From: Candidatus Woesebacteria bacterium GW2011_GWA1_39_21
GTDB lineage: Bacteria > Patescibacteriota > Microgenomatia > UBA8517
Direction of reading: 5' to 3'
Assembly (NCBI GenBank): GCA_000993685.1
Contig: LBWP01000002.1
Span: 7,993-71,992 of the forward strand
DNA length: 64,000 nucleotides
Below the pieces are notes generated by a model. That model saw only the letters and a program-made list of their open reading frames with translations. It was not told the origin of the DNA and searched no databases. Positions 27,734-64,000 of the stretch are shown here, in pieces. Position 1 is the first letter of the stretch. The number at the start of each line of letters is the position of its first letter. The translations under genes were made by a program, and so were the position numbers.

Positions 27734-27742
27734 TATTTAAAA

Positions 27743-30064: not shown

Positions 30065-30085
30065 CCGAATAAAACCAATCCTGTT

Positions 30086-32227
30086 ATGAAAAAAACAAAA
30101 CAAGTTATCAAAGCTAATGGTAATTTTCAGGAATTCGACACTGAAAAAATTTACAAAAGTATTTGGTTGGCTGCGCAAAATGTCGGTGGAAAGGATGATA
30201 AAACTGCGGTATTGCTTAAAAATGAAGTCGTTGCTGTACTCACAGAGAAATATCCAAATGGGGAGTACATCAAAACTTCGGAGATTGGCGAGATTGTCGA
30301 AAAGGTTCTGATTGAACACGGACATGCAAAAACAGCAAAAGAATTCATCCGCTTTCGGGAAAATAAAAAGCACTATCGTCAGGACAAAGAAAGCCTTGGG
30401 ATTAAAGACGATATCGGTTTGGGTTACAACACGCTGTATATTTTAAAGGAACGTTACCTTAAAAGAGACGAAAAGGGAAAGATTATTGAGACACCAAAGG
30501 GAATGTTTAAGCGGGTGGCAAAGTTTTTGGCAAGTGTTGAAAAGACAAAAGCACTTCGTGATAAATGGTATGAAAAATTTTATGACGTCATGGTTAAATT
30601 TGAGTTTCAACCGGGAACTAGACCGCTGGCCAACGCTGGAAAAAAAGAAGCACAACTTGGAAATTGTTTTGTCTGGCCGCTGAATGATGACATCAATCAT
30701 ATCTTTAAAATCCTGCACGAGTCGACTCTGATTAAAAAGCACGGTGGGGGGTGTGGTTATAACTTTTCCAATTTACGACCCGAGGGAGATGCTGTCGGTG
30801 GGATTCCAGATCTTGCGGCGGGCCCGGTCAAAATAATTGAAATGTTTGATTTAATGACCTCGCTTTTCAGACAAGAGGGAAAATACGAAAGCGGAAACAT
30901 GGCTGTTTTAAATGCCAACCACGCAGACATCTTTAATTTTATTTCCGCAAAACAAACTGACGGACATCTCTCAAAAACGAACATTTCTGTCGGTATTACG
31001 GATGAATTCATGAACGCAGCCCTTGAGGGAAAAGATTGGAAACTGATTAACCCAAGAAACGGTGAGGTGGTTAATGTTGTTAAGGCAAAATCGGTTCTTG
31101 AACTGATGGCGGCGATGGCCTGGCAAACCGGTGACCCGGGAATTCTTAATCTTTCTGCGATTAACAAGGGAAACCAATTTGGAAATCCGCTTTTGAAAAA
31201 GTGCGGACCGATAATGTCAACAAATGTTTGTGGAGAAATTCCACAGTACCCATACGAGTCCTGCAATTTGGGTTACGTCAACTTTACCAAATTTATAAAA
31301 GGTAAATCGTTTGATTTTGCGCATTTAAAAGAGGTGGTGGCAATTGCAGTCAGGTTGATGGACAACGTCATTTCCGCATCGTGGTTTCCAGTTCCCGAGG
31401 TTACAAAATCAGTGCAAGACCATCGAAGAATTGGAATTGGCTGTGTTGGTTGGGCGGAAACTTTAGCGAGGCTTGAAATTCCCTATGACAGTGAAGAAGC
31501 TTATGAGCTGGCGGAAAAAGTTACAAGGGCGATGTATCAATCCGCTTTTGTAACATCGGCCAAACTTGCCAAAGAAAAGGGGCCTTTTCCCCTTATATCT
31601 GATTCGATTTGGGCAAATAAAAAAGATAAACCACGAAACGTTGCGCTTTTGACTTTTCCGCCGTCTAGTGGAAATGCTGTCATTGCCGAAACAACTTTTG
31701 GTATTGAACCATACTTTGCTTTGGCCTATGAGCAAAATGTTCTTGGGGGAATGAGGCTTCGGACAATCATTCCGTATTTTGTCGAGAAATTAAAGGAAAG
31801 AGGAATTTATTCAGAAGAGCTAGTTCAAAAAGTTATCGACAATCATGGAAGTATTCAGGCACTTTCCGAAATCCCAGCCGATTTAAAAAAGATCTTCAAA
31901 GTTGCTCACGATATCCGGTGGCGGGATCATATCAAAATGCAGGCGGCTTTCCAAAAATGGACCGATAACGCAATCACAAAAACGATCAACATGCCCTCAA
32001 GTGCGACTCCAAACGATATTGAAGAAGCATACACTTTGGCTTGGAAATTGGGGTGCAAGGGACTGACGGTTTACCGTGATCGAACGAAAAAAGATCAGGT
32101 CTTTGAATTTGGAAAATCGGAGAATGACGTCATTTCTGTCAAGTGTCCCAATTGTGAAGCGCTGCTTACTAAGGAAAGAAAATGCTACAAATGTAAGAAG
32201 TGTGGATATTCGACGTGTGAAATTTGA
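30086..32227 (+). CDS. nrdJ: class II ribonucleotide reductase with N-terminal ATP-cone (paralog 3)
   Basis: The ATP-cone sequence is KQVIKANGNFQEFDTEKIYKSIWLAAQ. The active-site motif is TNVCGEIPQYPYESCNLGYVNF. A C-terminal zinc ribbon is present (CPNCEA...CYKCKKCGYSTC). Confidence 0.85.
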   Translation: MKKTKQVIKANGNFQEFDTEKIYKSIWLAAQNVGGKDDKTAVLLKNEVVAVLTEKYPNGEYIKTSEIGEIVEKVLIEHGHAKTAKEFIRFRENKKHYRQDKESLGIKDDIGLGYNTLYILKERYLKRDEKGKIIETPKGMFKRVAKFLASVEKTKALRDKWYEKFYDVMVKFEFQPGTRPLANAGKKEAQLGNCFVWPLNDDINHIFKILHESTLIKKHGGGCGYNFSNLRPEGDAVGGIPDLAAGPVKIIEMFDLMTSLFRQEGKYESGNMAVLNANHADIFNFISAKQTDGHLSKTNISVGITDEFMNAALEGKDWKLINPRNGEVVNVVKAKSVLELMAAMAWQTGDPGILNLSAINKGNQFGNPLLKKCGPIMSTNVCGEIPQYPYESCNLGYVNFTKFIKGKSFDFAHLKEVVAIAVRLMDNVISASWFPVPEVTKSVQDHRRIGIGCVGWAETLARLEIPYDSEEAYELAEKVTRAMYQSAFVTSAKLAKEKGPFPLISDSIWANKKDKPRNVALLTFPPSSGNAVIAETTFGIEPYFALAYEQNVLGGMRLRTIIPYFVEKLKERGIYSEELVQKVIDNHGSIQALSEIPADLKKIFKVAHDIRWRDHIKMQAAFQKWTDNAITKTINMPSSATPNDIEEAYTLAWKLGCKGLTVYRDRTKKDQVFEFGKSENDVISVKCPNCEALLTKERKCYKCKKCGYSTCEI

Positions 32228-32851: not shown

Positions 32852-33208
32852 ATGCCTGATGTGGAAAGAGAAAATGTTACTTCTGTACAGCCGTTGGTGA
32901 AAGAACGTCCGACAGACATGGAAATTCCACCGGAGTTGGAGCGTGGAGGAGTAGCTCAGGCGGTACCAAGTCAATTTAAAGGCCAGGTTAACGACGATTT
33001 CGGGAAACCCCTAATTCAGACACCACCAGCTTCGGCGGTAACAATTCAGGTTCCGGCTTCACAACAACAATTGGAAGGCTGGTCAAAAGGCGATCCTGAA
33101 AACGCTCTGACTTGGTTTGCGGTTTTTTGGATTCGATTGATTAAAAAGGCACTTCATTTTAGTTGGCGAATGGTTAAAAAAATTACAGGAGGTGAGCCAA
33201 ATGTATAG
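32852..33208 (+). CDS. hypothetical small protein with C-terminal hydrophobic helix
   Basis: The protein is Pro/Gln-rich and ends with a TM-like segment (LTWFAVFWIRLIKKAL). It overlaps the start of the ATPase gene. Confidence 0.3.
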   Translation: MPDVERENVTSVQPLVKERPTDMEIPPELERGGVAQAVPSQFKGQVNDDFGKPLIQTPPASAVTIQVPASQQQLEGWSKGDPENALTWFAVFWIRLIKKALHFSWRMVKKITGGEPNV

Positions 33209-35525
33209 TGAAGTCGAGGTTGCGATGATATTGTTACTAGTATTCTCTCTTTTTATTTTTGTTGTGGCTGTTGCAGTATTTTTTATTGTTACTCAAATTA
33301 AACACAGAAATCGTGAGGAGGAATCGATTGACTCAGTACTACTGCAAGTTGCAGTTCACAAAAATAACGAAATAAAAATTGATGCGATGGAACAGCTTTT
33401 TTCGGCTTTGTATTCAATCAAGGGGGGTGGTTGGAAGCAAAAATACAAAACACAACCGATATTGTCGTTTGAAATTGTTGCAAAAAAAGAGGACATCAGA
33501 TTTTACGTCTGGACGCCGAAGAAGTTTAAGGACATGATCGAAAAACAAATTCACGGTGCATACCCTGACGCAGAGGTAATAGAAGTTCAGGAATATAACA
33601 TTTTTACAGAAGAGGGGAAGGTTGCCTACAAATGCCTGCAATTGGCACGGGACAATTTTTATCCGATTAAGACTTTTAAGGAGTTGCCAACAGATCCTAT
33701 GTCGGTTATTACTTCAGCACTTGCCAAGATGGGAGATGGTGAAGCGGCAGCAATCCAGATTTTGATTTCTCCTGCTGATAGCACCTGGAGCAAACAGGGA
33801 ACGTCTTTCATCTCCGCTACCAAAAAGCAGGAAGCTGATCCGGAAAAGGCAAAGTTTTCCGTTCCGGCAAAAACACTGGAAGCGGTGGAAAATAAAGTTA
33901 CCAAATCGGGCTTTGATACGTCAGTTCGAATTGTCGTTGTGTCGAAAGATAAAGAATCGGCAAAATCGCATCTTTCGAACATTTCCAGTTCTTTCGCCCA
34001 GTTTAATGGAGATCTTAACTATCTCAAAAGCCGCGTGATCCGACAGAAGGGTGCATTTATTGAGGATTTTATTTACAGGTACCATCCAATGTTCCACGTC
34101 TTCGGCAATAAAAAATCAATTCTGAGTGTTGAGGAATTGGCGTCAATTTATCATTTTCCTAATAAAGCTATTACCACACCGCACATTAAATGGGTTTATT
34201 CGAAAACAGCTCCGGCACCTTCCGCAATTCCCGAATCCGGTATCTATTTGGGAGTAAGTTCTTATCAGGGAACAAAACGTCCAGTCTACATTTCTGATGA
34301 GGATCGGATGCGCCACATGTACATTGTCGGAAAAACCGGTGTCGGGAAGTCGGAGTTTTTAAAAGACCTAGTAATTCAAGATATTAGAAACGGTCAAGGA
34401 GTTTGTTTTATTGATCCGCACGGTGATGCGGTGGAAGATTTGTTGAACCTTATTCCTCCCGAGCGGGCAGAGGACGTAATTTACTTTAATCCTTCGGATT
34501 CCGAGCGGCCGATAGGACTTAACTTATTGGAAGCCAATACGGAAGATCAAAAACATTTTGCAGCCACAGCTGTGATTAATATGATGTACAAGCTTTTTGA
34601 TCCTTACAAAACGGGTATTGTCGGCCCACGTTTCGAACACGCTGTCAGAAATGCAATGCTTACGGCAATGAGTGATGAAGGTTCGACTTTTGTTGAAGTG
34701 ATGCGAATTTTAACCGACTCGCGTTATGTGCAAGAACTTCTTCCAAAAGTTACCGACCCGATAGTGAGGCGGTATTGGACAGATCAAATTGCACAGACCT
34801 CCGACTTTCATAAATCCGAAGTTTTGGATTACATCACCTCAAAATTCGGGCGCTTTGTCACAAACAGAATGATTAGAAATATTATCGGCCAATCTGAATC
34901 GTCTTTCTCGTTGCGTAGAGTTATGGACGAAGGGAAAATTCTATTTATTAATTTATCAAAGGGAACAATCGGTGAGGAAAACTCCAGCTTTTTGGGGCTC
35001 ATTTTGGTTCCAAGAATACTAATGGCGGCGATGAGTAGGACTGATGTTCCAAAGGAACAAAGACGCCCTTTTTATCTTTATGTTGACGAGTTTCAGAATT
35101 TTGCCACGCCGGACTTCGCAGTAATTTTATCCGAGGCGAGAAAATATGCACTGGCACTTTGTGTGGCGAATCAGTTTATCGGGCAAGTTGAGGAAGAAGT
35201 CAAAAATGCGGTTTTTGGTAACGTTGGAACAATTGTTTCTTTCCGAATTGGAACCACCGATGCTAATTATCTGCAGCACGAATTCGCTCCGGTTTTTGCT
35301 GAGGACGACCTATTAAATATCGAGAAATATCACGTCTACATTAAAACGACCGTCAACAACGAACCTGTACCTCCATTTTCAATGGACTTATTCCGTGATA
35401 TGGACAAGTTGAAGGCGATGGAAAATCCTAAAGTTGCCGGAATCATCAAAGAAATGAGCCGTCTTAACTACGGGCGTGACTTAAAACTGGTCGAGGCAGA
35501 AATCGCGCGAAGAGCAAAACTGTAA
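33192..35525 (+). CDS. membrane-anchored HerA/VirB4/VirD4-superfamily P-loop ATPase (type IV coupling-protein-like)
   Basis: An N-terminal TM helix is present. Walker A is GKTGVGKSEF. The sequence CFIDPHGD is a DPxGE-like motif. Walker B is FYLYVDEFQNF. Confidence 0.55.
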   Translation: MSQMYSEVEVAMILLLVFSLFIFVVAVAVFFIVTQIKHRNREEESIDSVLLQVAVHKNNEIKIDAMEQLFSALYSIKGGGWKQKYKTQPILSFEIVAKKEDIRFYVWTPKKFKDMIEKQIHGAYPDAEVIEVQEYNIFTEEGKVAYKCLQLARDNFYPIKTFKELPTDPMSVITSALAKMGDGEAAAIQILISPADSTWSKQGTSFISATKKQEADPEKAKFSVPAKTLEAVENKVTKSGFDTSVRIVVVSKDKESAKSHLSNISSSFAQFNGDLNYLKSRVIRQKGAFIEDFIYRYHPMFHVFGNKKSILSVEELASIYHFPNKAITTPHIKWVYSKTAPAPSAIPESGIYLGVSSYQGTKRPVYISDEDRMRHMYIVGKTGVGKSEFLKDLVIQDIRNGQGVCFIDPHGDAVEDLLNLIPPERAEDVIYFNPSDSERPIGLNLLEANTEDQKHFAATAVINMMYKLFDPYKTGIVGPRFEHAVRNAMLTAMSDEGSTFVEVMRILTDSRYVQELLPKVTDPIVRRYWTDQIAQTSDFHKSEVLDYITSKFGRFVTNRMIRNIIGQSESSFSLRRVMDEGKILFINLSKGTIGEENSSFLGLILVPRILMAAMSRTDVPKEQRRPFYLYVDEFQNFATPDFAVILSEARKYALALCVANQFIGQVEEEVKNAVFGNVGTIVSFRIGTTDANYLQHEFAPVFAEDDLLNIEKYHVYIKTTVNNEPVPPFSMDLFRDMDKLKAMENPKVAGIIKEMSRLNYGRDLKLVEAEIARRAKL

Positions 35526-53561: not shown

Positions 53562-54626
53562 ATGTTTTCTCCAAAATTTGCAATTACAAATAATATCTTA
53601 AAAAACATCGGTGCGATTGAGGCCGCTAAGGAAGTCATTGAAAACGCCCCCTTGGTGCCTTTGTATGAAAAAAGGTTTAAGAGTGAAGCGTTATTGAAAA
53701 CTGTTCACCACGGAACCCACATTGAAGGAAATGACTTGAACATTGATCAGACGAGACAGGTTTTAGAAGGGGAAGAAATATTTGCGCGTGATCGAGATAT
53801 CCAAGAAGTTATCAATTACCGAAGAGTTATTGATCTATTGGATGAGTTGAAAGATAAACGTGGAGGTTACGATTTGGGAATGCTGACAGAAATTCATAAA
53901 GAAACTGTTGGGAAAGTCGTCCCTCCGGAAAAATGTGGAGTTGTTCGAAAAAGTGAAGTAGTAATCAAGGAGGAGGGAACAGGCAAAATCGTTTTTCAAC
54001 CTCCGCCATATCACCAGGTAATGAGTCTTTTGGAAGAGTTTTTTTCCTGGTTAAATGACCCATCTTCTTTGGAGTATCACTCAATATTGAAGGCGGGAAT
54101 TGTCCATTATATTTTAGTGTCAATCCATCCTTTTGTTGAAGGAAACGGTAGAACCGTCCGCGCCTTTTCGATTTTGGTATTAATGCGGGAGAATTATGAC
54201 ATTAAAAGGTTCTTTTCACTCGAAGAGCACTTCGACTCTGACCCGTCAAGTTATTATGACGCCTTTTCCAAAACGGACGCACTTGTCGGTGGAGTTTTCG
54301 AAAAAAATCTCACTGGTTGGCTGGAATATTTTACGCAGGTTGTTGCGATTGAATTAACAAAGATCAAAGAAAGAATCAGGAAACTTTCTGTTGACTCAAG
54401 ACTTAAGGGGATAATCGGTTCTCAAGTGGCGTTGACCGAAAGACAAATGAAACTGATTGAACACATGGGGGAGATGGGGTATGTTGGAATGTCGGAGCTT
54501 AAAAAACTGTTTCCGATGGTTTCCGAAGATACAATTCTTCGCGACATGAATTATCTCATTGATAAAAAGATTATTAAAAAAGAGGGAAAGACGAAGGCGG
54601 CTAGGTATGTCATGGTGAGCAAATAA
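53562..54626 (+). CDS. Fic/DOC family protein with C-terminal wHTH
   Basis: The Fic motif HPFVEGNGRTVRAF is present. Confidence 0.85.
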   Translation: MFSPKFAITNNILKNIGAIEAAKEVIENAPLVPLYEKRFKSEALLKTVHHGTHIEGNDLNIDQTRQVLEGEEIFARDRDIQEVINYRRVIDLLDELKDKRGGYDLGMLTEIHKETVGKVVPPEKCGVVRKSEVVIKEEGTGKIVFQPPPYHQVMSLLEEFFSWLNDPSSLEYHSILKAGIVHYILVSIHPFVEGNGRTVRAFSILVLMRENYDIKRFFSLEEHFDSDPSSYYDAFSKTDALVGGVFEKNLTGWLEYFTQVVAIELTKIKERIRKLSVDSRLKGIIGSQVALTERQMKLIEHMGEMGYVGMSELKKLFPMVSEDTILRDMNYLIDKKIIKKEGKTKAARYVMVSK

Positions 54627-57053: not shown

Positions 57054-58019
57054 ATGTCGTATCTTCTTCTAGCACTAATTGTTATTTTTTCCGTCGTTTT
57101 GATTAAGTCGGCGGACATGACGGTTGTTGGGTTGCGGAAAGTGACAGGGCGGGCGCATTTAATTGGTCTGACCGCGATCATTGTTGCAATTGGAACATCT
57201 TTTCCGGAATTCTTCGTAGCGATTACATCTGCGATCGAAAATAAACCACGTTTATCTTTGGGAGTTGCACTTGGCTCGAATATCGCCAATATTGCCCTCA
57301 TTGGTGCCGGATCAGCAATTCTTTCCGGTAGGGTCTCAATTTCCGAAAAGGTGATGAATAAAATTGTCTGGATTAGTTTAATTTGTGGAATGCTTCCATA
57401 CGCTCTTCTTTTAGACGGCAGTCTAAGCAGGGTAGATGGAATTATTATGCTTTTAGTTTATGCGGCATACATCCTTAGTTTTTTCCGACAATATAACGAA
57501 CGGGCGCAGGAGGAATACCAAAAAGGCATCTCGTTTACAAAATTAATTCGTAAAATTGAGCATTTTGCGGAAGATAAATGGAGGAGCATCGCGGCAATTT
57601 TTATTGGAATTTCTTTAATGCTTTTTTCTGCAGACACGATCGTCAAGTTTTCGAACCTTTTAGCCGAAAGGGTCAACATTCCGATTTTTGTGATCGGACT
57701 TTTTATCTTGGCGATCGGAACGTCGCTTCCCGAGTTTGCATTTTCTTTAAGATCGCTAAAAGATCATGAGCCACAGATGTTTATTGGAAATCTTTTGGGG
57801 TCAGTGGTTGCCAATACGACTTTAGTCATCGGAACATCTGTCTTGATTAGTCCAATATATTCGCTTAATGTTTCAAGTTATCTAGTCCCAGGTTTAACTT
57901 TTGTTGCCGTTTATCTTCTTTTTTATTACTTCATCCGAACAAAAAGTAGATTGGAAAGATGGGAAGCCGGGATTTTACTTTTAATTTACATTGTGTTTTT
58001 TTTGATAGAATTAAGGTAG
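57054..58019 (+). CDS. Na+/Ca2+ exchanger (CaCA family, YrbG-like)
   Basis: Two alpha-repeats carry GTSFPEF and GTSLPEF. About 10 TM helices are predicted. Confidence 0.85.
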   Translation: MSYLLLALIVIFSVVLIKSADMTVVGLRKVTGRAHLIGLTAIIVAIGTSFPEFFVAITSAIENKPRLSLGVALGSNIANIALIGAGSAILSGRVSISEKVMNKIVWISLICGMLPYALLLDGSLSRVDGIIMLLVYAAYILSFFRQYNERAQEEYQKGISFTKLIRKIEHFAEDKWRSIAAIFIGISLMLFSADTIVKFSNLLAERVNIPIFVIGLFILAIGTSLPEFAFSLRSLKDHEPQMFIGNLLGSVVANTTLVIGTSVLISPIYSLNVSSYLVPGLTFVAVYLLFYYFIRTKSRLERWEAGILLLIYIVFFLIELR

Positions 58020-58106
58020 TCCCGGTTGGATAGCACAAAGTGCATCCAACGGGATCCCGTGAGATAGCTTGAAAAGCTTATCTCACTGGGAGGGGGTGAG
58101 TAAGTT

Positions 58107-58442
58107 ATGGCTGATGATAAAAAAGGTGTAACAGGTCTTCCCAAAAATACGGCAGGGGCACTGTCTTATGTTTTAGGGCCCTTATCAGGAGTGGTTTTTC
58201 TGATTCTCGAGAAGGATCCGTTTGTTAAATTTCACGCAATGCAGTCGATTGTTGTTTTTGGAGTGATCTTTATATTGCAGTGGGCTTTTGCAATAACAAT
58301 TTTCCTTGCTCCTTTAAGCGGTCTTTTAGCAATATTGGCTTTTGTGGCGTGGCTAATGCTAATTTATAAAGCGTGGAGAGGTGAAGAGTGGGAAGTTCCG
58401 CTTTTGGGGAAATACGCAAGAATATTTGTTAAGAAGGTCTAA
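58107..58442 (+). CDS. small membrane protein (DUF4870-like)
   Basis: The sequence ALSYVLGPLSGVVFLILEKDPFVKFHAMQS is followed by TM helices. Confidence 0.4.
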   Translation: MADDKKGVTGLPKNTAGALSYVLGPLSGVVFLILEKDPFVKFHAMQSIVVFGVIFILQWAFAITIFLAPLSGLLAILAFVAWLMLIYKAWRGEEWEVPLLGKYARIFVKKV

Positions 58443-58595
58443 ACGGTTTGCTGATGGTGAGTAAGGTGGGACGGGTCATTCGCCGGATATTGTTTTGTCG
58501 GTTTTGAAGTAAGCACTAAGACTGACAGCTGATTATTTTTAAGAATACTGCATAAACCTCTGAAAGAATCTGACTGCTTAAAAAGTCGGGAAAAG

Positions 58596-59267
58596 ATGAT
58601 TAAAACCATCAGGGATGAGTATGGTTTAGTCTCCCCGCAAGTGCTTGGTGTAATGTTGAAAGTTCCACGGCACGAATTTGTCCCAAAAGGGTTTCAAAAA
58701 GTTGCTTACGAAGACAAGCCGATCGAAATTGGTTTTGGGCAGACGATGAGCCAACCTTACACTGTTGCAATGATGACACATCTTGCAACAGAAATTCCAA
58801 ATACCAAATACCAGTTTTCAAACAGATTGCAAAATACAAATAGAACGAGTGGTAAGATAAAAAGACGTAAAGTTTTGGAAATTGGAACAGGGTCGGGTTA
58901 CCAGGCGGCGCTTCTGTCTTATTTTTTTGACGAGGTTTATACAATAGAAATCATTCCCCAATTGTCGGAATTTGGTAGAAACAATCTTTTCCGGTTGGGG
59001 TATAAAAATGTTTTCGTCAGAGAGGGAAGCGGAGAATACGGATGGAAAGAAAAATCTCCTTTTGACGCAATAATAATTACCGCCGCACTTGAGAAAGACC
59101 TACCGCCAGTTCTGAAAACCCAACTTGTTAAAGGTGGAATTTTAGTGGCCCCGATTGGACCGCGGTATTCGCAGGTTATGACCAGATTTGCGAGGTTAAA
59201 AAACGGGAAATTTAAAAAGGAGGAATTCCAGAAGTTTGTTTTTGTACCTTTTGTAAGAAACGAATAA
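58596..59267 (+). CDS. pcm: protein-L-isoaspartate O-methyltransferase
   Basis: The motif MSQPYTVAMM is present. SAM motif I is LEIGTGSGYQAALL. A ~25-aa insertion (IPNTKYQFSNRLQNTNRTSGKIKRR) sits between them. Confidence 0.85.
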   Translation: MIKTIRDEYGLVSPQVLGVMLKVPRHEFVPKGFQKVAYEDKPIEIGFGQTMSQPYTVAMMTHLATEIPNTKYQFSNRLQNTNRTSGKIKRRKVLEIGTGSGYQAALLSYFFDEVYTIEIIPQLSEFGRNNLFRLGYKNVFVREGSGEYGWKEKSPFDAIIITAALEKDLPPVLKTQLVKGGILVAPIGPRYSQVMTRFARLKNGKFKKEEFQKFVFVPFVRNE

Positions 59268-59344
59268 AAATCACCGATATCGTAGGGTGAAAATTATTTA
59301 AATCGGGGATTAACCTGACGTTTCAATTTTATTCAAACTGCGCC

Positions 59345-59376
59345 AAAACCGTGGACTCTTAGTACACGGATGAAAG
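59345..59376. repeat. hairpin-repeat element
   Basis: Sequence aaaaccgtggactcttagtacacggATGAAagg shares the AAAACC-hairpin-ATGAA architecture. Confidence 0.5.
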
Positions 59377-59479
59377 GAGGGAGCGATCAAATGGTTCTGC
59401 CAGCTCACCATCTTAAGTAAAAACTGAAGAACTTGTTAAGCCCAAAGGGCGAGAATACAGAGGGCTTTTCCTCGGTAGT

Positions 59480-59776
59480 TTATTTTCCAGGTTCAAAGGG
59501 GGTTATGATTTCAGCTATTACTTTAATTCCCGCTTTTCCCAACTGTCCTTCTTGCACTTTCAAAAATCCATCAACCGCCTTTTTATTTTCCGCCGGAGTG
59601 CCTCCATAGCGGCTACCGATAAATACACGTTTTATTTTATTCGTTTCAGTGGAAACAGCTCTGGGTGTGTTAAAAAGGTTGTTGGGATCTTCTATTATTG
59701 CTTCAAGCGTGACACCTAAACCTTCTTGTTCTTTTCCTGTTGAGATTCGGATTGGTGGATAAGTAGTTTTCGCCAT
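59480..59776 (-). CDS. hypothetical protein
   Basis: Only the ORF is seen. I recognise no motifs. Confidence 0.3.
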   Translation of the reverse strand: MAKTTYPPIRISTGKEQEGLGVTLEAIIEDPNNLFNTPRAVSTETNKIKRVFIGSRYGGTPAENKKAVDGFLKVQEGQLGKAGIKVIAEIITPFEPGK

Positions 59777-59828
59777 CTTTTATCACCCCTTTTTTAATTA
59801 AAACCGATTATAGTTTAAAATAGTTATT

Positions 59829-60389
59829 ATGCAACTAATAGTAGGACTTGGTAATCCAGGGGAGAGGTACAAAAATGCAAGACACAATACAGGGTTTTTA
59901 GTTTTAGAAAAAATAAAAACCGAATTAGCCAAATCGCAATTTTCAATTTCCAAACAAATAACAAATAACAATTTTCGGGAGGAAAACAGGTTTAAGGCCG
60001 AAGTATTGAAACTGGGCAATGTAATGTTAGCAAAACCCACAACGTTTATGAATGACTCCGGCCTTGCAGTTTCAAAAATCGCTAATTTTTATAAGATTGC
60101 TCTGGGTGATATCTACGTTATTCACGACGATTTGGACCTTCGTTTGGGCGAATACAAAATTCAAAAAGGAGTTGGTCCAAAACTGCATTACGGAATTGCG
60201 TCAATAGAAGAGAAACTTGGAAGTAAGGATTTTTGGAGAGTGCGGGTTGGTATTGACAGCAGAACGGTCGAAAACAGATTGTCTGGCGAAGAGTATGTTT
60301 TGCAAAATTTTAATGAGCAGGAAGAGGAAGTTTTTGAGGCGACTCTGGAAAGATTAACAGATGAGTTATTTAAAATGATTTTTAAGTGA
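59829..60389 (+). CDS. pth: peptidyl-tRNA hydrolase
   Basis: The N-terminal motif is LIVGLGNPGERYKNARHNTGF. The 186-aa length fits. Confidence 0.9.
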   Translation: MQLIVGLGNPGERYKNARHNTGFLVLEKIKTELAKSQFSISKQITNNNFREENRFKAEVLKLGNVMLAKPTTFMNDSGLAVSKIANFYKIALGDIYVIHDDLDLRLGEYKIQKGVGPKLHYGIASIEEKLGSKDFWRVRVGIDSRTVENRLSGEEYVLQNFNEQEEEVFEATLERLTDELFKMIFK

Positions 60390-60395
60390 ATTTAA

Positions 60396-60698
60396 ATGAC
60401 GGGTGCAAAAACATTTTCTACGGTCGGCGATGTTTTACAAAAATTCAATAAAAATGAAGACAAATACATCAGCCGCGAATTTCAGAAGTATGCTTACGGT
60501 CTTGCGAGAGAGTTGAATGATTTGGAACATAAATCGCTCTACATGAGATTGGCTAAAAATACCCCGAGGCCGCTTCTTGAAGTTGCTCGAAGTTTTGTCA
60601 AAGATGCTTATCAAGTAAAATCAAAAGCCAGATTGTTTATGTGGAAGCTTGCGAAGCTGAAAAGCGAGAAAGTTGACACACAAGAGGGGCGCAGGTAA
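60396..60698 (+). CDS. hypothetical protein
   Basis: Only the ORF is seen. Confidence 0.3.
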   Translation: MTGAKTFSTVGDVLQKFNKNEDKYISREFQKYAYGLARELNDLEHKSLYMRLAKNTPRPLLEVARSFVKDAYQVKSKARLFMWKLAKLKSEKVDTQEGRR

Positions 60699-60841
60699 TA
60701 ACCGAGAACTCTTATGTGGAAGCTGAGCGAGTTAAGACGAGCGAAGCGCTCACTCAAGAGGAGTTGAGCGAAGCGAAAATCTCTTATCTGGAGGTTAAAG
60801 AAATTGAAAGAAGAAAATAATTCTTAATTAGCTGTTTTTTT

Positions 60842-61810
60842 ATGTCTTTACAAGGTAATTGGGTAGATTTAGTAATAATCCTAGTTCTGCTGTATTTCTT
60901 TCTTGATTCTTTTAGACATAATTTTTTTGTCATTTTGATTGAGTTCCTTTCGTTTTTGATATCTCTTCTTTTGGGAATCCGTTTTTATAATCAGGTTGCA
61001 AAACTATTTTCTGTAAACTTTTCAATATCGACAACAGTTTCAAAGCCAGTCGGCTTTTTCATTACCGTTGCCATCACCGAGTTATTTGTTGCGGCCCTGA
61101 TGTTTTACATTTTGAAAAAACTTCCCGCATACATAAAAAATTTAAAGACACTCAAATATTATAAATTTATTGTTGGACTATTGGATGGTCTACTGATCAT
61201 CTCCTTTCTTATTCCATTGGTACTTTCATTTCCGGTTCCGACCTTGATTAAAGACAGTATTGCAGGTTCAAAAATCGGAAATTTTATTTACACCAACACA
61301 ATAGTTTTTGAGAGAAATTATAAAGATATTTTTGGGGGTGTAGTTGAAGAGGGGATGAATCTTTTAACCGTTAAGCCGGAAAGTAGCACCAGTGTTCCGT
61401 TAAATGTTAAGAGTGTAAGTTTAACGATTGATTATGAAAGTGAAAACAATATGGTTAATTTAGTTAATTTAGAAAGAAAAAAGGTTGACGTCGCGCCTTT
61501 GGCAGTAAGACCCGAGATAGTTGAAATTGCTAGAAACTACGCGAAAGAAATGTGGCAACGCAGTTATTTCTCCCACTACTCACCAGAAGGAGAAGATGTT
61601 GCCGACAGATTGGGGAAGGCAGGGGTTTCTTTCCGAGTGGTGGGGGAAAATTTAGCACTGGCTCCGACACTTCTTGTTGCACATACAGGGTTGATGAATT
61701 CCGAGGGTCACAAAAAAAATATTTTAGACGTAGCATATCGCCAAGTAGCAATTGGTGTAGTTGACAATGGGATTTACGGCAAGATTTTTGTGCAGATTTT
61801 CACCGATTAG
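60842..61810 (+). CDS. CvpA-like membrane domain fused to CAP/SCP (PR-1-like, YkwD-type) domain
   Basis: An N-terminal four-TM region is present. The C-terminal YFSHYSPEGEDVADRLGKAGVSFRVVGENLA...HTGLMNSEGHKKNIL is typical of CAP domains. Confidence 0.55.
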   Translation: MSLQGNWVDLVIILVLLYFFLDSFRHNFFVILIEFLSFLISLLLGIRFYNQVAKLFSVNFSISTTVSKPVGFFITVAITELFVAALMFYILKKLPAYIKNLKTLKYYKFIVGLLDGLLIISFLIPLVLSFPVPTLIKDSIAGSKIGNFIYTNTIVFERNYKDIFGGVVEEGMNLLTVKPESSTSVPLNVKSVSLTIDYESENNMVNLVNLERKKVDVAPLAVRPEIVEIARNYAKEMWQRSYFSHYSPEGEDVADRLGKAGVSFRVVGENLALAPTLLVAHTGLMNSEGHKKNILDVAYRQVAIGVVDNGIYGKIFVQIFTD

Positions 61811-61837
61811 AAACAGACGAAATCAACAAAAAAAATA

Positions 61838-62023
61838 TTAATCAATATCACACGGCTGTTTTAAAACGCAGGTTAAGTGTCCGTTATGTCCACAGGTTGT
61901 GCATGGACAAGTATTTCTGATGGTTGTTGATTCGGAAGAACCATAAACGATGGGTGTTTGCATTTGGTTGACACTCTTGTCCTGATCCGTAATCTGTTCG
62001 ATTATTACACTTTCTGTTGCCAT
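61838..62023 (-). CDS. small Cys/Thr-rich peptide (61 aa); candidate secreted or modified peptide, or mini zinc ribbon
   Basis: The sequence MATESVIIEQITDQDKSVNQMQTPIVYGSSESTTIRNTCPCTTCGHNGHLTCVLKQPCDID is encoded here. A strong SD (aagggggtg) lies 6 nt upstream of the ATG at 62023. The track ORF 61838-62143 would overlap the upstream gene. Confidence 0.4.
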   Translation of the reverse strand: MATESVIIEQITDQDKSVNQMQTPIVYGSSESTTIRNTCPCTTCGHNGHLTCVLKQPCDID

Positions 62024-62063
62024 ATTTTTCACCCCCTTTTTCTTTTTGGCGGATTTGTCAGTT

Positions 62064-63110
62064 TTAAAATCTGTTATCGACATCAAGGACGTGAATTTTT
62101 TGACCAATCCCACCTTCTGGAATTTGATAATCTCGAATCTCAACTACAGAACCTTCACCAAAAATATTGTTTGCTCTTTCAACAGCCTCCTGAATTAGAA
62201 ATTTGTCCTGATTCAGAGTTTTAAGGATTACTGCTGCGGTTTTAAAATTAATATTGTTAAAAGAAAAAGTTGTTTGGTTGAGTGATTTTACCGGATGTTT
62301 CGGCTCTCTCAACCCTTTTAGAACTGTATTGATGTCGAAGGAGTAAGAATTTTCGTATTTGAATAAATCTTCAAAATTTGGAGTGTTAATTTGTATGGAT
62401 GGGATTAAACTGTCTGGGTTGTCCAGCTCACGAGCATGTAGAATTCCTGTTCCGATGTTTAGTTCTGCACCAGATTCTGATTTTCTGACTTTAATATGAT
62501 AAGCTTGGGTTTGTAGTAATTCATTATCGTCGTGGATCATTAAAAAGGTATCGTCTGGTACTCTTTTGACAAAATCGCTGATTGAATTGAGTTTTATGCT
62601 CTGGCCGTTTTCCTTTAGAATTAATTTTCTTTTGTCTTCTTCAATATTGATGGCTAAAAGCATTGGTTCCGAAACACTAACACCATTGTGGTTAGCGCCA
62701 TTTCTATTTTGATAGGGTCTGGCGGTTCTAACCACCAGGCTATTTGCTGGAGGAAGGCCAAGTCCTTGGTTTATCTGATTTGATAAATGAAGAATTTTTA
62801 TAAAGTCCTTTTCGTTCATTGCACGAACTATTTGTGAGTCGATGACGGTCGTTGCCAAGCCGTTTAAACCAGCCTCGTTAATTTGTAAGCGTTTTTTAAT
62901 TTTGTTTGGCAGGATGTTGATATACAACCTTAGGCTTTCTGGAATATTTTTCGCAATAATAATACTATTTTTATTCAGCTGATGGCAGGACTCTGGAGTT
63001 GTGTTTTCGACTTTTCCGTAACCAAATTCTTTCATAATATCGTGAATAATATTTGAATTTTGAACTTGATTCATTGACAGTCCTGTCAATGAAAGCTTAT
63101 TTCCAGGCAC
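62064..63110 (-). CDS. hypothetical 348-aa protein
   Basis: The long ORF is co-directional with the peptide gene and 40 nt upstream of it. I recognise no motifs. Confidence 0.4.
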   Translation of the reverse strand: MPGNKLSLTGLSMNQVQNSNIIHDIMKEFGYGKVENTTPESCHQLNKNSIIIAKNIPESLRLYINILPNKIKKRLQINEAGLNGLATTVIDSQIVRAMNEKDFIKILHLSNQINQGLGLPPANSLVVRTARPYQNRNGANHNGVSVSEPMLLAINIEEDKRKLILKENGQSIKLNSISDFVKRVPDDTFLMIHDDNELLQTQAYHIKVRKSESGAELNIGTGILHARELDNPDSLIPSIQINTPNFEDLFKYENSYSFDINTVLKGLREPKHPVKSLNQTTFSFNNINFKTAAVILKTLNQDKFLIQEAVERANNIFGEGSVVEIRDYQIPEGGIGQKIHVLDVDNRF

Positions 63111-63206
63111 AGAAGTGATATAATCGCTTAAGTTGCTAACAAGTCTTTCAAGGGCGCTTCAAAAATACTATTTCCGAAAAGGGAATCGGATTATTTTCTC
63201 CAACGG

Positions 63207-64000
63207 AATGTCATTAAATAAACTTGCTTTGGAAATGTGGGAAAGGCTGGGCTGTTCTGGTGTTGACCCAAGTGTATTATCTAAATCGCTTAGTGGGCAA
63301 CGGTTGTTAACATCTACCCAACTGGACATATTATGTAAATCCTTGAGGTTATCTAAAACAGAGAAACACAAGTTAAATGAGAATCTCAAGAAGGACATCT
63401 TAGATAGGTATGATTTGAAATACGTCGATGAAGACAGTGGCTCGAGTCAGAACGTGGCTCTACTCGAATTGGGGCTGAAATCCGCCAAGGATTTTATGAA
63501 AAAAGGACAGCCAAAATATACGTTAGGGTATATTGATTCTTTAGTTGATATTATTGCCAATACAAAAAAAAGTTGTGGGCAAAGAAATATCGAAAGAATC
63601 GATACTATTTCAGCAGAATTATATGTCGAATATATGGACTGTATGTATAGTGTTGTCAGCGAAAAAGAAATATTTAATCGATCGAAGTACCCCCTGAGAG
63701 TAATACGGGGAGTAGGAGAAAAATACAAGAACGAGAAATTAATAAACAGTTATTATTCGCTTTTGGCGAGTACGTATTATATTGGGAAAAACCCCGGTAA
63801 AACAATTCCTTGTGTGTATAAACACATGGATGTGGATAAAATTGACGATTTTCAAAAAATGACGGCTTTAAGGGCAGCGTTGATTTCTAGTGGACAAATT
63901 GGTAGAGGAGATCTTGTAAAACATAATTATCAAACGCTAATTGACTTGTCAAAGGATTGGAGCGATTCATACAAAGTTAATGTTTATGATGGGGTAGCTA
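63207..64000 (+). CDS. hypothetical protein with N-terminal XRE-like HTH (partial; continues past window end)
   Basis: An open frame runs from ATG 63207 to the window end with no stop. It is absent from the track because it is incomplete. The N-terminus LNKLALEMWERLGCSGVDPSVLSKSLSGQRLLTSTQLDILCKSL is HTH-like. Confidence 0.4.

What the first reader, a model, noticed from the sequence alone, without database searches (positions are those of the whole stretch)
61838..64000. Cys/Thr-rich 61-aa peptide with very strong RBS, next to an uncharacterised 348-aa protein and a divergent HTH regulator
The peptide MATESV...TPIVYGSSESTTIRNTCPCTTCGHNGHLTCVLKQPCDID has a charged leader-like N-terminus and a Ser/Thr/Cys-dense C-terminal core with five Cys and two His. 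An AAGGGGGTG Shine-Dalgarno sits 6 nt upstream. It is 40 nt downstream of a 348-aa ORF with no recognisable motifs. The pair is divergent from a partial XRE-like HTH gene that runs off the window. The peptide could be a precursor of a modified peptide or bacteriocin, or a metal-binding mini-protein. The 348-aa protein could be an uncharacterised partner. This is the best candidate here for an undescribed small system.
Basis: inference. Interest (0 to 1): 0.5.

Follow-up and report, generated by a model that had tools for sequence, protein, structure and literature searches.

The report
Orphan Cys-rich ORF beside ATP-grasp gene

Summary
A 61-codon ORF (61838-62023, minus strand) has an AAGGGGGTG Shine-Dalgarno 6 nt upstream. 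It lies 40 nt after a 323-348-aa ORF, which is divergent from a gene that runs off the window.

- **Large protein.** It belongs to a small Patescibacteria-only family with no Pfam, NCBIfam or PDB sequence match. Its predicted fold is ATP-grasp. The closest structures are the nucleotide-binding domains of rifampin phosphotransferase, HpeI and PPDK.
- **Divergent gene.** It encodes a ~380-aa protein with a TPR superhelix behind a conserved N-terminal domain, read as DNA-binding by inference. This regulator pairs with the ATP-grasp gene in four lineages. An ATTGACA-N4-TGTCAAT palindrome (63073-63090) recurs between the two genes in three of them.
- **Peptide.** It has no homologue among 5.8 billion proteins beyond 99.8-99.9 % identical contigs. 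Four other lineages carrying the ATP-grasp gene have no peptide gene beside it. In three of them the gene abuts or overlaps its convergent neighbour where the window has a 253-bp insert.
- **Neighbourhood.** No RiPP enzyme, peptidase or transporter lies nearby or just beyond the window.

The ORF is unlikely to be chance (p about 0.001), but its role is unknown. A new RiPP system remains a low-probability reading.

The parts
61838..62023 (-). 61-codon ORF for a Cys/His/Thr-rich peptide. It is an orphan, found only in this population.
   Evidence: The sequence was read. The only database hit is P0054, the same ORF with an A2T change, on contigs 99.8-99.9 % identical to the window. Its frame has the best codon score of the six frames.
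62030..62038 (-). Shine-Dalgarno AAGGGGGTG, 6 nt before the peptide ATG
   Evidence: It is one of only six sites in the window that combine an SD-like motif, an ATG and an ORF. The chance probability is about 0.00125.
61811..62063 (.). 253-bp stretch between the ATP-grasp stop and the stop of the convergent CvpA-CAP gene. It is present only in this lineage and carries the peptide ORF.
   Evidence: In L001/L002 and L009 the two genes overlap, and in L011 they are 2 nt apart. No Rfam match was found.
62064..63074 (-). Gene for an ATP-grasp-fold protein of a Patescibacteria-specific family. The start is uncertain: GTG 63110 gives 348 aa, ATG 63074 gives 336 aa (= P0001), and ATG 63035 gives 323 aa. 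The 323-aa version best fits the relatives.
   Evidence: There is no Pfam, NCBIfam or PDB sequence hit. The family has 52 representatives among 1.84 billion proteins. The AF2 model has pLDDT 70. [quoted passage not shown] Invariant residues are listed.
63073..63090 (.). Perfect palindrome ATTGACAGTCCTGTCAAT, the candidate operator of the divergent regulator
   Evidence: It is unique in the window even with two mismatches allowed. It was flagged as an inverted repeat. TTGACA-N4-TGTCAA lies at the equivalent intergenic position in L015, and a one-mismatch version lies there in L011.
63046..63051 (-). TATTAT, a -10-like box 10 nt before ATG 63035 of the ATP-grasp gene (inferred promoter)
   Evidence: Other genes in the window show the same layout of a TATAAT-like box just before the start.
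63116..63124 (+). TGATATAAT, an extended -10 box 8 nt before the TTG start of the regulator gene (inferred promoter)
63133..64000 (+). 5' part of a ~379-aa regulator gene with a conserved N-terminal putative DNA-binding domain and a C-terminal TPR superhelix. It runs off the window.

Best explanation
**What the region holds.** It holds a two-gene module conserved in several Microgenomates/Patescibacteria lineages, plus a peptide ORF specific to this one population.
- One gene encodes a ~320-aa stand-alone ATP-grasp-fold enzyme. Its nucleotide-binding domain resembles those of PEP-synthase/PPDK-type dikinases.
- The other gene, transcribed divergently, encodes a ~380-aa regulator with an N-terminal putative DNA-binding domain and a C-terminal TPR ligand-binding domain.
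- This population alone has a 253-bp insert behind the enzyme gene. It carries a 61-codon ORF with a strong Shine-Dalgarno.

**Inferred mechanism.**
- The regulator binds the palindrome ATTGACA-N4-TGTCAAT. This site overlaps the -35 regions of both back-to-back promoters.
- The regulator releases or activates transcription when its TPR domain binds a ligand.
- The enzyme spends ATP to phosphorylate or ligate a substrate that is still unknown.
- The peptide ORF has no promoter or terminator of its own in the 40-nt gap. It would therefore be co-transcribed with the enzyme gene and translated from its own SD.

**What the peptide most likely is.** It is probably a young, lineage-specific small protein whose C-terminal CxCxxCxHxxHxxCx5C cluster binds a metal or forms disulfides. 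It is probably not the conserved substrate of the enzyme.

**Shown versus inferred.**
- Shown: the ORF, SD and spacing; the ATP-grasp and TPR folds at model level; the conserved pairing and palindrome; the orphan status; and the absence of RiPP genes nearby.
- Inferred: DNA binding, promoter positions, co-transcription, and the peptide's translation and chemistry.
For: **The peptide ORF is more than chance.**
- ORF, SD and spacing.
- The SD-plus-ORF combination is rare by chance.
- Its frame has the best codon score of the six.

**The enzyme is a Patescibacteria-restricted ATP-grasp.**
- ATP-grasp fold.
- The family is small and restricted to Patescibacteria.

**The enzyme gene is inherited at a fixed position, without a peptide.**
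- In L001, L009 and L011 it sits beside CvpA-CAP and Pth. It overlaps or abuts its convergent neighbour there.
- No Cys-rich small ORF occurs in any related locus.

**The peptide is an orphan.**
-.

**The regulator pairs with the enzyme gene.**
- The pair is found in the window, L015, L006/L010 and L011.
- The palindrome is conserved.
- TPR fold.

**No RiPP machinery nearby.**
-.
Against: - No expression data exist for the peptide.
- The peptide's codon score lies between real genes and spurious ORFs.
- No profile supports a metallothionein or zinc-binding family.
- With one population and one nonsynonymous SNP (A2T), selection on the ORF cannot be measured.
- The N-terminal domain of the regulator matches no HTH profile or solved structure by sequence.
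- Precursors of ATP-grasp-modified peptides are known to be hypervariable between close relatives, including in CPR bacteria (PMC8939145). Orphan status therefore does not fully exclude a substrate role.
Confidence: 0.5

Rival explanations
1. The peptide is the precursor of a ribosomally made, modified peptide. Its Ser/Thr/Asp/Cys-rich core would be phosphorylated, or ester/amide cross-linked, by the adjacent ATP-grasp enzyme. The N-terminal acidic half would serve as the leader.
For: - The peptide ORF sits in an operon-like position 40 nt after an ATP-grasp gene and has its own strong SD.
- Its composition is bipartite. The acidic first half has gene-like codon use, and the second half holds 9 Ser/Thr, 5 Cys and 3 acidic residues.
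- ATP-grasp ligases make graspetides. CPR graspetide loci have hypervariable precursors and often include TPR proteins (PMC8939145).
Against: - The enzyme family is conserved in four other lineages with no peptide gene beside it. In three of them there is no room for one downstream.
- There is no protease, transporter or second enzyme in the window or beyond it.
- The published CPR leader motif Phhx(1,2)h and the core motif TxxxTx(6-10)Dx(1-4)D are not properly matched. This comes from reading the sequence.
- One strain variant carries a nonsense codon (E235*) in the enzyme while keeping the peptide. This could be a sequencing error.
Confidence: 0.12
2. The ORF is not a functional gene. On this view the 253-bp insert is non-coding or recently acquired DNA, and the ORF and its SD-like G-run are fortuitous or not yet under selection.
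For: - There is no homologue anywhere.
- The codon score is at the 4th percentile of real gene segments, and 17 % of spurious ORFs score higher.
- The only polymorphism seen in the ORF is nonsynonymous.
- An ORF of this length alone arises in 6 % of random 253-nt stretches.
Against: - The ORF with a correctly spaced SD has p of about 0.001.
- In this SD-poor genome, four of the five other such sites lie at or within 9 nt of a gene start.
- Five Cys within 20 residues compares with 0.75 % Cys genome-wide.
- The first 28 codons score like real genes, at 0.34.
- The ORF fills most of the insert.
Confidence: 0.22
3. The peptide is the pro-form of a signalling peptide sensed by the TPR regulator. 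This would resemble the PlcR-PapR, Rgg-SHP or AimR-AimP pairs of the RNPP family.
For: - The regulator combines an N-terminal conserved domain, read as DNA-binding, with a TPR superhelix. Structural matches include RapI, RapH, PlcR and a phage Rap.
- A small ORF lies in the same locus.
Against: - The peptide has no hydrophobic signal sequence (read from the sequence).
- Loci with the regulator and enzyme but no peptide exist: L006/L010 and L011.
- No literature on RNPP regulators in CPR bacteria was found.
Confidence: 0.05

Closest known systems
[quoted passage not shown]
   Same: - The size is similar, at about 300-330 aa.
- The protein is free-standing, like HpeI (PMC12167813).
   Different: - There is no sequence-level match to PPDK_N or any Pfam, NCBIfam or PDB entry.
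- No partner with a swivelling phosphohistidine domain appears in any of the contexts examined.
- The gene is paired instead with a TPR regulator.
- The family is restricted to Patescibacteria.
Graspetide (omega-ester peptide) biosynthetic pairs: an ATP-grasp ligase plus a precursor peptide, including the CPR branches described by Makarova et al. 2022
   Same: - An ATP-grasp gene is next to a small ORF with a leader-like half and a Ser/Thr/Asp-containing half.
- The host is a CPR bacterium.
- A TPR protein is in the locus.
- The precursor has no relatives, as is often seen in that class.
   Different: - The enzyme is structurally nearer to dikinase domains than to PsnB or CdnC.
- The peptide is absent from all other loci of the enzyme family.
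- The leader and core signatures are not matched.
- There is no peptidase or transporter.
RNPP-type regulators (PlcR, Rgg, NprR, PrgX, AimR; Rap phosphatases share the TPR part)
   Same: - The two-part architecture is similar: an N-terminal putative DNA-binding domain and a C-terminal TPR superhelix of about 13 helices.
- The gene is divergent from its target gene.
- There is a palindromic candidate operator.
   Different: - No XRE/HTH_3 profile match was found.
- The best structural matches are eukaryotic LGN/Pins TPRs.
- There is no conserved adjacent secreted peptide.
- The host is a Patescibacterium rather than a Firmicute or its phage.
Small bacterial metallothionein-like proteins (SmtA/BmtA, MymT). 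The resemblance is recalled from knowledge, not tested.
   Same: - The polypeptide is short.
- It has dense CxC, CxxC and CxH spacing, with 5 Cys and 2 His in 20 residues.
   Different: - There is no profile match at E <= 1.
- It has fewer ligand residues than known metallothioneins.
- A 36-residue N-terminal part has no Cys or His.
- Metal binding is untested.

Membership tests
ATP-grasp superfamily | Characteristic ATP-grasp fold, with nucleotide held between two antiparallel beta-sheet subdomains | tested here: met
   [not shown]
ATP-grasp superfamily | Conserved basic residues for the phosphates and acidic or amide Mg2+ ligands near the C-terminus | tested here: inconclusive
   Invariant R116, R215, E312 and R314, and near-invariant D331 in the EFRxY...HVLDVD segment, are candidates. 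They were not mapped onto a ligand-bound structure.
PEP-synthase/PPDK-type dikinases (PPDK_N, PF01326) | Sequence match to the PPDK_N profile | tested here: not met
   No Pfam hit at E <= 1 for the window protein. None at E <= 0.1 for any of 42 family members.
PEP-synthase/PPDK-type dikinases (PPDK_N, PF01326) | Swivelling phosphohistidine domain, either in the same chain or in an adjacent gene (as HpeH is for HpeI) | tested here: not met
   The protein is about 300 aa with a single domain. No PEP_mobile-type gene appears in the window neighbourhood or in L001, L009, L011 or L017.
Graspetide biosynthetic system | ATP-grasp ligase of the MvdC/MvdD/PsnB type | tested here: inconclusive
   [not shown]
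Graspetide biosynthetic system | A precursor peptide gene accompanies the ligase across related loci | tested here: not met
   No peptide gene lies beside the enzyme gene in L001/L008, L009, L011, L006/L010 or L017/L018.
Graspetide biosynthetic system | Leader signature Phhx(1,2)h and a core with spaced Thr/Ser and Asp/Glu (CPR branch 1: TxxxTx(6-10)Dx(1-4)D) | tested here: not met
   Read against the motifs. P24-I-V-Y-G is followed by Gly or Ser where a hydrophobic residue is required. T38xxxT42 is followed by the first Asp only after 16 residues.
Lanthipeptide or other known RiPP classes | Class-defining enzyme (LanB/C, LanM, LanKC/L, YcaO, radical SAM or similar) in the locus | tested here: not met
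   None appears among the 24 large or neighbouring window ORFs scanned, nor in the 2.9-kb contig that extends beyond the window. Smaller window ORFs were not all scanned.
RNPP regulators | C-terminal TPR ligand-binding domain | tested here: met
   [not shown]
RNPP regulators | N-terminal XRE-type helix-turn-helix | tested here: inconclusive
   No HTH profile or PDB sequence match was found. The model shows helices with a longer than usual turn. A conserved palindrome supports DNA binding only indirectly.
RNPP regulators | Cognate secreted oligopeptide encoded next to the regulator | tested here: not met
   The peptide has no signal sequence. It is also absent from the other regulator loci.
Bacterial metallothioneins | Match to a metallothionein profile, and metal binding | tested here: not met
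   No Pfam or NCBIfam hit at E <= 1. Metal binding cannot be tested with these tools.

The most novel reading that the evidence does not exclude
The 61-aa peptide is the substrate of the adjacent ATP-grasp enzyme. This would make the locus the first example of a modified-peptide pathway built on a dikinase-like (PPDK_N-fold) ATP-grasp. The enzyme would, for example, phosphorylate Ser/Thr residues and so prime thioether or ester formation with the clustered Cys or Asp. Expression would be controlled by an RNPP-like TPR regulator in a CPR bacterium.
Probability: 0.08. Interest if true: 0.75.

Novelty: new variant of a known kind. Interest (0 to 1): 0.3.

Why it matters
- **The enzyme family.** This ATP-grasp family is invisible to sequence profiles. 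It is restricted to the reduced genomes of Patescibacteria, held at a fixed chromosomal position, and often placed under a dedicated TPR regulator. This pattern suggests a conserved, regulated ATP-dependent reaction that is not yet described. Finding its substrate would fill a small gap in CPR biology.
- **The peptide.** It is an example of a probably translated orphan micro-gene added to an existing operon. It is useful as a case of gene birth or acquisition.
- **If the RiPP reading were true.** If the peptide were the enzyme's substrate, this would be a new route to modified peptides. As it stands, the evidence makes that unlikely, and the finding is of moderate to low interest.

Tried and rejected
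**Profile and family searches**
- Pfam, NCBIfam, PADLOC and PHROGs scans of the three proteins gave no significant hits.
- A weak NARF hit (E 0.07) and hits to the 101-aa frame (FMO-like, DUF7034) were dismissed as noise.
- A profile search of PDB sequences with a 42-member alignment found nothing. The same search with the regulator's N-terminal domain also found nothing.
- Rfam on the locus found nothing.
- A conserved hairpin region upstream of the enzyme gene in L001 and L009 gave only sub-threshold Rfam noise.

**Searches for relatives**
- The first peptide homology search timed out. The repeat found only the same ORF.
- The viral-contig scan for the peptide found nothing.
- An exact look-up of the 61-aa product failed because public gene calls use the 81-aa start.
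With narrower alignments it returned one genome locus and one metagenome locus, both already known lineages.

**Other**
- The afdb50 fold library was unavailable.
- The divergent 291-aa gene next to the tandem regulator paralogues in L019 was tested as a distant ATP-grasp relative. It was rejected: hhalign probability 0.1 % and no HMM hit.
- The longer 81-aa and 101-aa frames for the peptide were considered and rejected. They have no SD and overlap the conserved C-terminus of the enzyme.
- A terminator-like call at 63070-63093 was reinterpreted as the operator palindrome.
Full report
**1. The observation**

- On the minus strand, an ATG at 62023 opens a 61-codon frame that ends at 61838.
- AAGGGGGTG lies at 62038-62030, 6 nt upstream of that ATG.
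- The preceding ORF stops at 62064, which leaves a 40-nt gap.
- A plus-strand ORF runs from about 63133 off the window end.
- The Cys and His count is correct. With Met as residue 1 they are C39, C41, C44, H46, H49, C52 and C58.

**2. Is the small ORF more than chance?**

Several lines say it is.
- This genome rarely uses a Shine-Dalgarno. Most of about 50 gene starts in the window have none. Many have a TATAAT-like box a few bases before the ATG.
- An SD-like site followed at 4-10 nt by an ATG and an ORF of at least 40 aa occurs six times on both strands. Three coincide with listed gene starts (45845, 48603, 58107). One (33201) lies 9 nt inside the listed start of the 33192 gene. One is internal to a gene. 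The sixth is the peptide.
- Under a first-order Markov null, a 253-nt gap holds an ATG ORF of at least 55 codons in 6 % of trials. It holds one with a properly spaced GGRGG in 0.125 % of trials.
- The codon log-odds score of the frame (0.04) is far better than the other five frames (-0.27 to -0.66). It is below typical gene segments (0.235 +/- 0.10).
- The first 28 codons score 0.34 and the Cys/His/Thr-rich remainder scores -0.21. That is expected for a composition so unlike the proteome, which has 0.75 % Cys.
- The longer frames are the TTG at 62143 and the ATG at 62083. The 81-aa version is the one called in public data as P0054. Both overlap the conserved 3' end of the upstream gene and have no SD.

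I conclude that the 61-aa ORF is probably a real translation unit. No expression data exist.

**3. The 348-aa ORF**

*Sequence searches*
- Pfam and NCBIfam give nothing.
- The 5.8-billion-protein index holds the identical protein (P0001, 336 aa) and only two relatives at about 35 % identity.
- An exhaustive profile search of 1.84 billion cluster representatives finds 52 proteins, nearly all about 300 aa.
- Named members come from Candidatus Shapirobacteria, Microgenomates and 'Patescibacteria group'. All are labelled hypothetical.
- None of 42 members hits Pfam. The family profile hits no PDB sequence.

*Conserved residues and fold*
- Conserved motifs are GLNGLATT, GLPxT, SEPxLL, (L/M)IHDDNxxLQ, ELxxxTGxLHAR and EFRIYP...HVLDVD.
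- Invariant residues are T75, P108, R116, S135, H181, D183, Q188, R215, E312, R314 and Y316 in P0001 numbering.
- An AlphaFold2 model has pLDDT 70 and pTM 0.69.
- HpeI is the free-standing ATP-binding component of a two-component dikinase. It needs a second protein carrying the swivelling histidine domain (PMC12167813).
- No such partner is present in any context examined here.

The protein is therefore a divergent, stand-alone ATP-grasp enzyme of unknown substrate.

*Start codon*
- Relatives begin about 25-30 residues later than the GTG 63110 start.
- The operator-to-start spacing seen in L015 and L011 (40-45 nt) is reproduced if translation starts at ATG 63035, giving 323 aa.

**4. Genomic context of the family**

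| Locus (protein) | Arrangement around the ATP-grasp gene |
|---|---|
| L001/L002/L008 (P0002) and L009 (P0004) | NrdR divergent on one side. On the other side the gene is convergent with, and overlaps, a CvpA-CAP gene. A 92-aa gene, Pth, MamF and Na/Ca exchanger follow. |
| Window | Same order: Na/Ca exchanger, MamF and PCMT (an extra gene here), then Pth, a 100-aa gene and CvpA-CAP (57054-61810). |
| L011 (P0008) | Same block again. The gene is 2 nt from CvpA-CAP, and a 351-aa gene is divergent upstream. |
| L006/L010 (P0003) | A tRNA-Trp and a GIY-YIG gene follow the ATP-grasp gene. |
| L017/L018 (Shapirobacteria) | The gene lies between a 184-aa gene and a DEAD-box helicase. |

- The enzyme gene is thus an inherited resident of this chromosomal block.
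- In none of these lineages is there a peptide gene. No Cys-rich small ORF occurs apart from L33 and a copper chaperone.
- The window differs by a 253-bp stretch (61811-62063) between the two convergent stops. The peptide ORF fills most of it.

**5. The peptide is an orphan**
- The repeat homology search returned a single cluster, P0054. This is the same ORF with an A2T change and a longer called start.
- Its contigs L013 and L014, and also L007, are 99.8-99.9 % identical to the window. They come from the same population.
- tblastn against all fetched loci, and a viral-contig scan, gave nothing.
- No Pfam, NCBIfam, PADLOC or PHROG family matches.

**6. The divergent gene**
- The full protein is on contig L016. 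Public data call it as 345 aa (P0055). It is about 379 aa from the TTG at 63133, because the segment LQKYYxRKGNxIxFxNGMxLNxLAxEMWERLG upstream of the called start is conserved in all relatives.
- Relatives lie divergent from an ATP-grasp family gene in three other places.
  - L015: regulator 64 % identical. The neighbour's N-terminal fragment matches the family motif.
  - L006/L010.
  - L011.
- An AlphaFold2 model of P0056 (pLDDT 76) shows a small N-terminal domain followed by about 13 helices.
- No HTH profile or PDB sequence matches the N-terminal domain. 'XRE-like HTH' therefore remains an inference.
- Indirect support for DNA binding comes from a perfect palindrome, ATTGACAGTCCTGTCAAT, at 63073-63090.
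  - It is unique in the window even with two mismatches allowed.
  - TTGACA-N4-TGTCAA lies in the L015 intergenic region, and TTGACAGGTGCGTCAA lies in L011.
  - L006 has a different palindrome, TTGTCAATGACAA.
- The palindrome lies between a TGATATAAT box (63116-63124, before the regulator's TTG) and a TATTAT box (63051-63046, before ATG 63035). It would overlap both -35 regions. The promoter assignments are inferred.
- The pairing is not obligatory.
  - Three lineages have the enzyme without this regulator (L001, L009, L017).
  - L019 has two tandem regulator paralogues beside an unrelated 291-aa gene.

**7. Surroundings**
- Beyond the window lie an Ogt-like DNA_binding_1 gene and a 183-aa protein with no family match.
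- The 24 large or neighbouring window ORFs that were scanned gave three kinds of result.
  - Most match familiar enzymes: primase, DNA ligase, PurA, RecF, Fpg, three tandem ribonucleotide reductase large subunits, FtsH, two class A PBPs, a 5'-3' exonuclease, a glycosyltransferase and a class I (Trp/Tyr-type) tRNA synthetase.
  - Two others match a Fic protein and a TrwB-like ATPase.
  - Three of the scanned ORFs match no family.
- None is a RiPP enzyme, leader peptidase or exporter.
- Rfam finds nothing in the locus.

**8. Most likely explanation**
- The conserved functional unit is the regulator plus the ATP-grasp enzyme.
- The peptide ORF is a recent, population-specific addition. It is read from the same transcript, because the 40-nt gap holds no promoter or terminator, and it is translated from its own SD.
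- Its C-terminal CxCxxCxHxxHxxCx5C cluster suggests metal binding or disulfide formation. The resemblance to small metallothioneins is recalled from knowledge, not tested. I put about 0.5 on this composite reading.
- The RiPP-precursor reading keeps about 0.12.
  - In its favour, ATP-grasp-modified peptides have notoriously variable precursors, also in CPR bacteria, where TPR proteins accompany them (PMC8939145).
  - Against it are the dikinase-like fold, the peptide-free relatives, the missing accessory genes and the unmatched leader and core signatures.
- A non-functional ORF keeps about 0.22.
- A signalling pro-peptide for the TPR regulator keeps about 0.05.

**9. Novelty and verdict**
- Nothing here is housekeeping in the sense of a known family, but nothing is categorically new either.
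- The locus combines a new, profile-invisible branch of the ATP-grasp superfamily, a TPR regulator with an RNPP-like layout in an unusual phylum, and an orphan micro-ORF.
- The specific claim that made the finding attractive was a conserved peptide-plus-partner system. That claim fails its own test.
- Interest is 0.3.

Noticed in passing
window 25325-32227: Three tandem paralogues of the ribonucleotide reductase large subunit (802, 773 and 713 aa). Two have ATP-cone domains and one has a TSCPD domain. In relatives, NrdR sits next to the ATP-grasp gene. Here that position is taken by the TPR regulator.
   Followed up: no
window, whole: Most gene starts lack a Shine-Dalgarno and have a TATAAT-like box 5-12 nt before the ATG. 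This suggests leaderless or very short-leader mRNAs. Only a handful of genes (45845, 48603, 58107, 33201 and the peptide) have GGAGG or GGGGG sites.
   Followed up: partly
L013, equivalent to window 62372: A strain variant carries G->T on the coding strand, which turns the nearly invariant E235 of the ATP-grasp protein into a stop. Public gene calls split the gene there. The peptide ORF is intact with A2T. This may be a real pseudogene or a sequencing error.
   Followed up: partly
L001 9900-9990 and L009 1760-1840: [quoted passage not shown] It shows compensatory changes (GTGGGTC/GACCCAC versus GTGGACC/GGTCCAC). On the opposite strand the first hairpin reads as an intrinsic terminator followed by T7. 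There is no Rfam family.
   Followed up: partly
L019 1239-3604: Two tandem paralogues of the TPR regulator (385 and 384 aa) lie divergent from a 291-aa gene. That gene is not detectably related to the ATP-grasp family.
   Followed up: partly
L017 6363-6917: In Candidatus Shapirobacteria the ATP-grasp gene is preceded by a 184-aa protein. By eye, its C-terminus looks like a ribbon-helix-helix DNA-binding domain. The neighbourhood also holds DinB, SRAP, Ogt-like and YdjM genes, which are DNA-damage-related functions.
   Followed up: no
window 60396-60698: A 100-aa protein with no Pfam match is conserved between CvpA-CAP and Pth in all syntenic relatives, where it is 92-93 aa. It shares a motif, DKYxSxEFQKYxYELAxELGD...LFMWKL.
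   Followed up: no
window 33192-35525 and 53562-54626: A TrwB/VirD4-like coupling-protein ATPase and a Fic-domain protein sit among the housekeeping genes.
   Followed up: no
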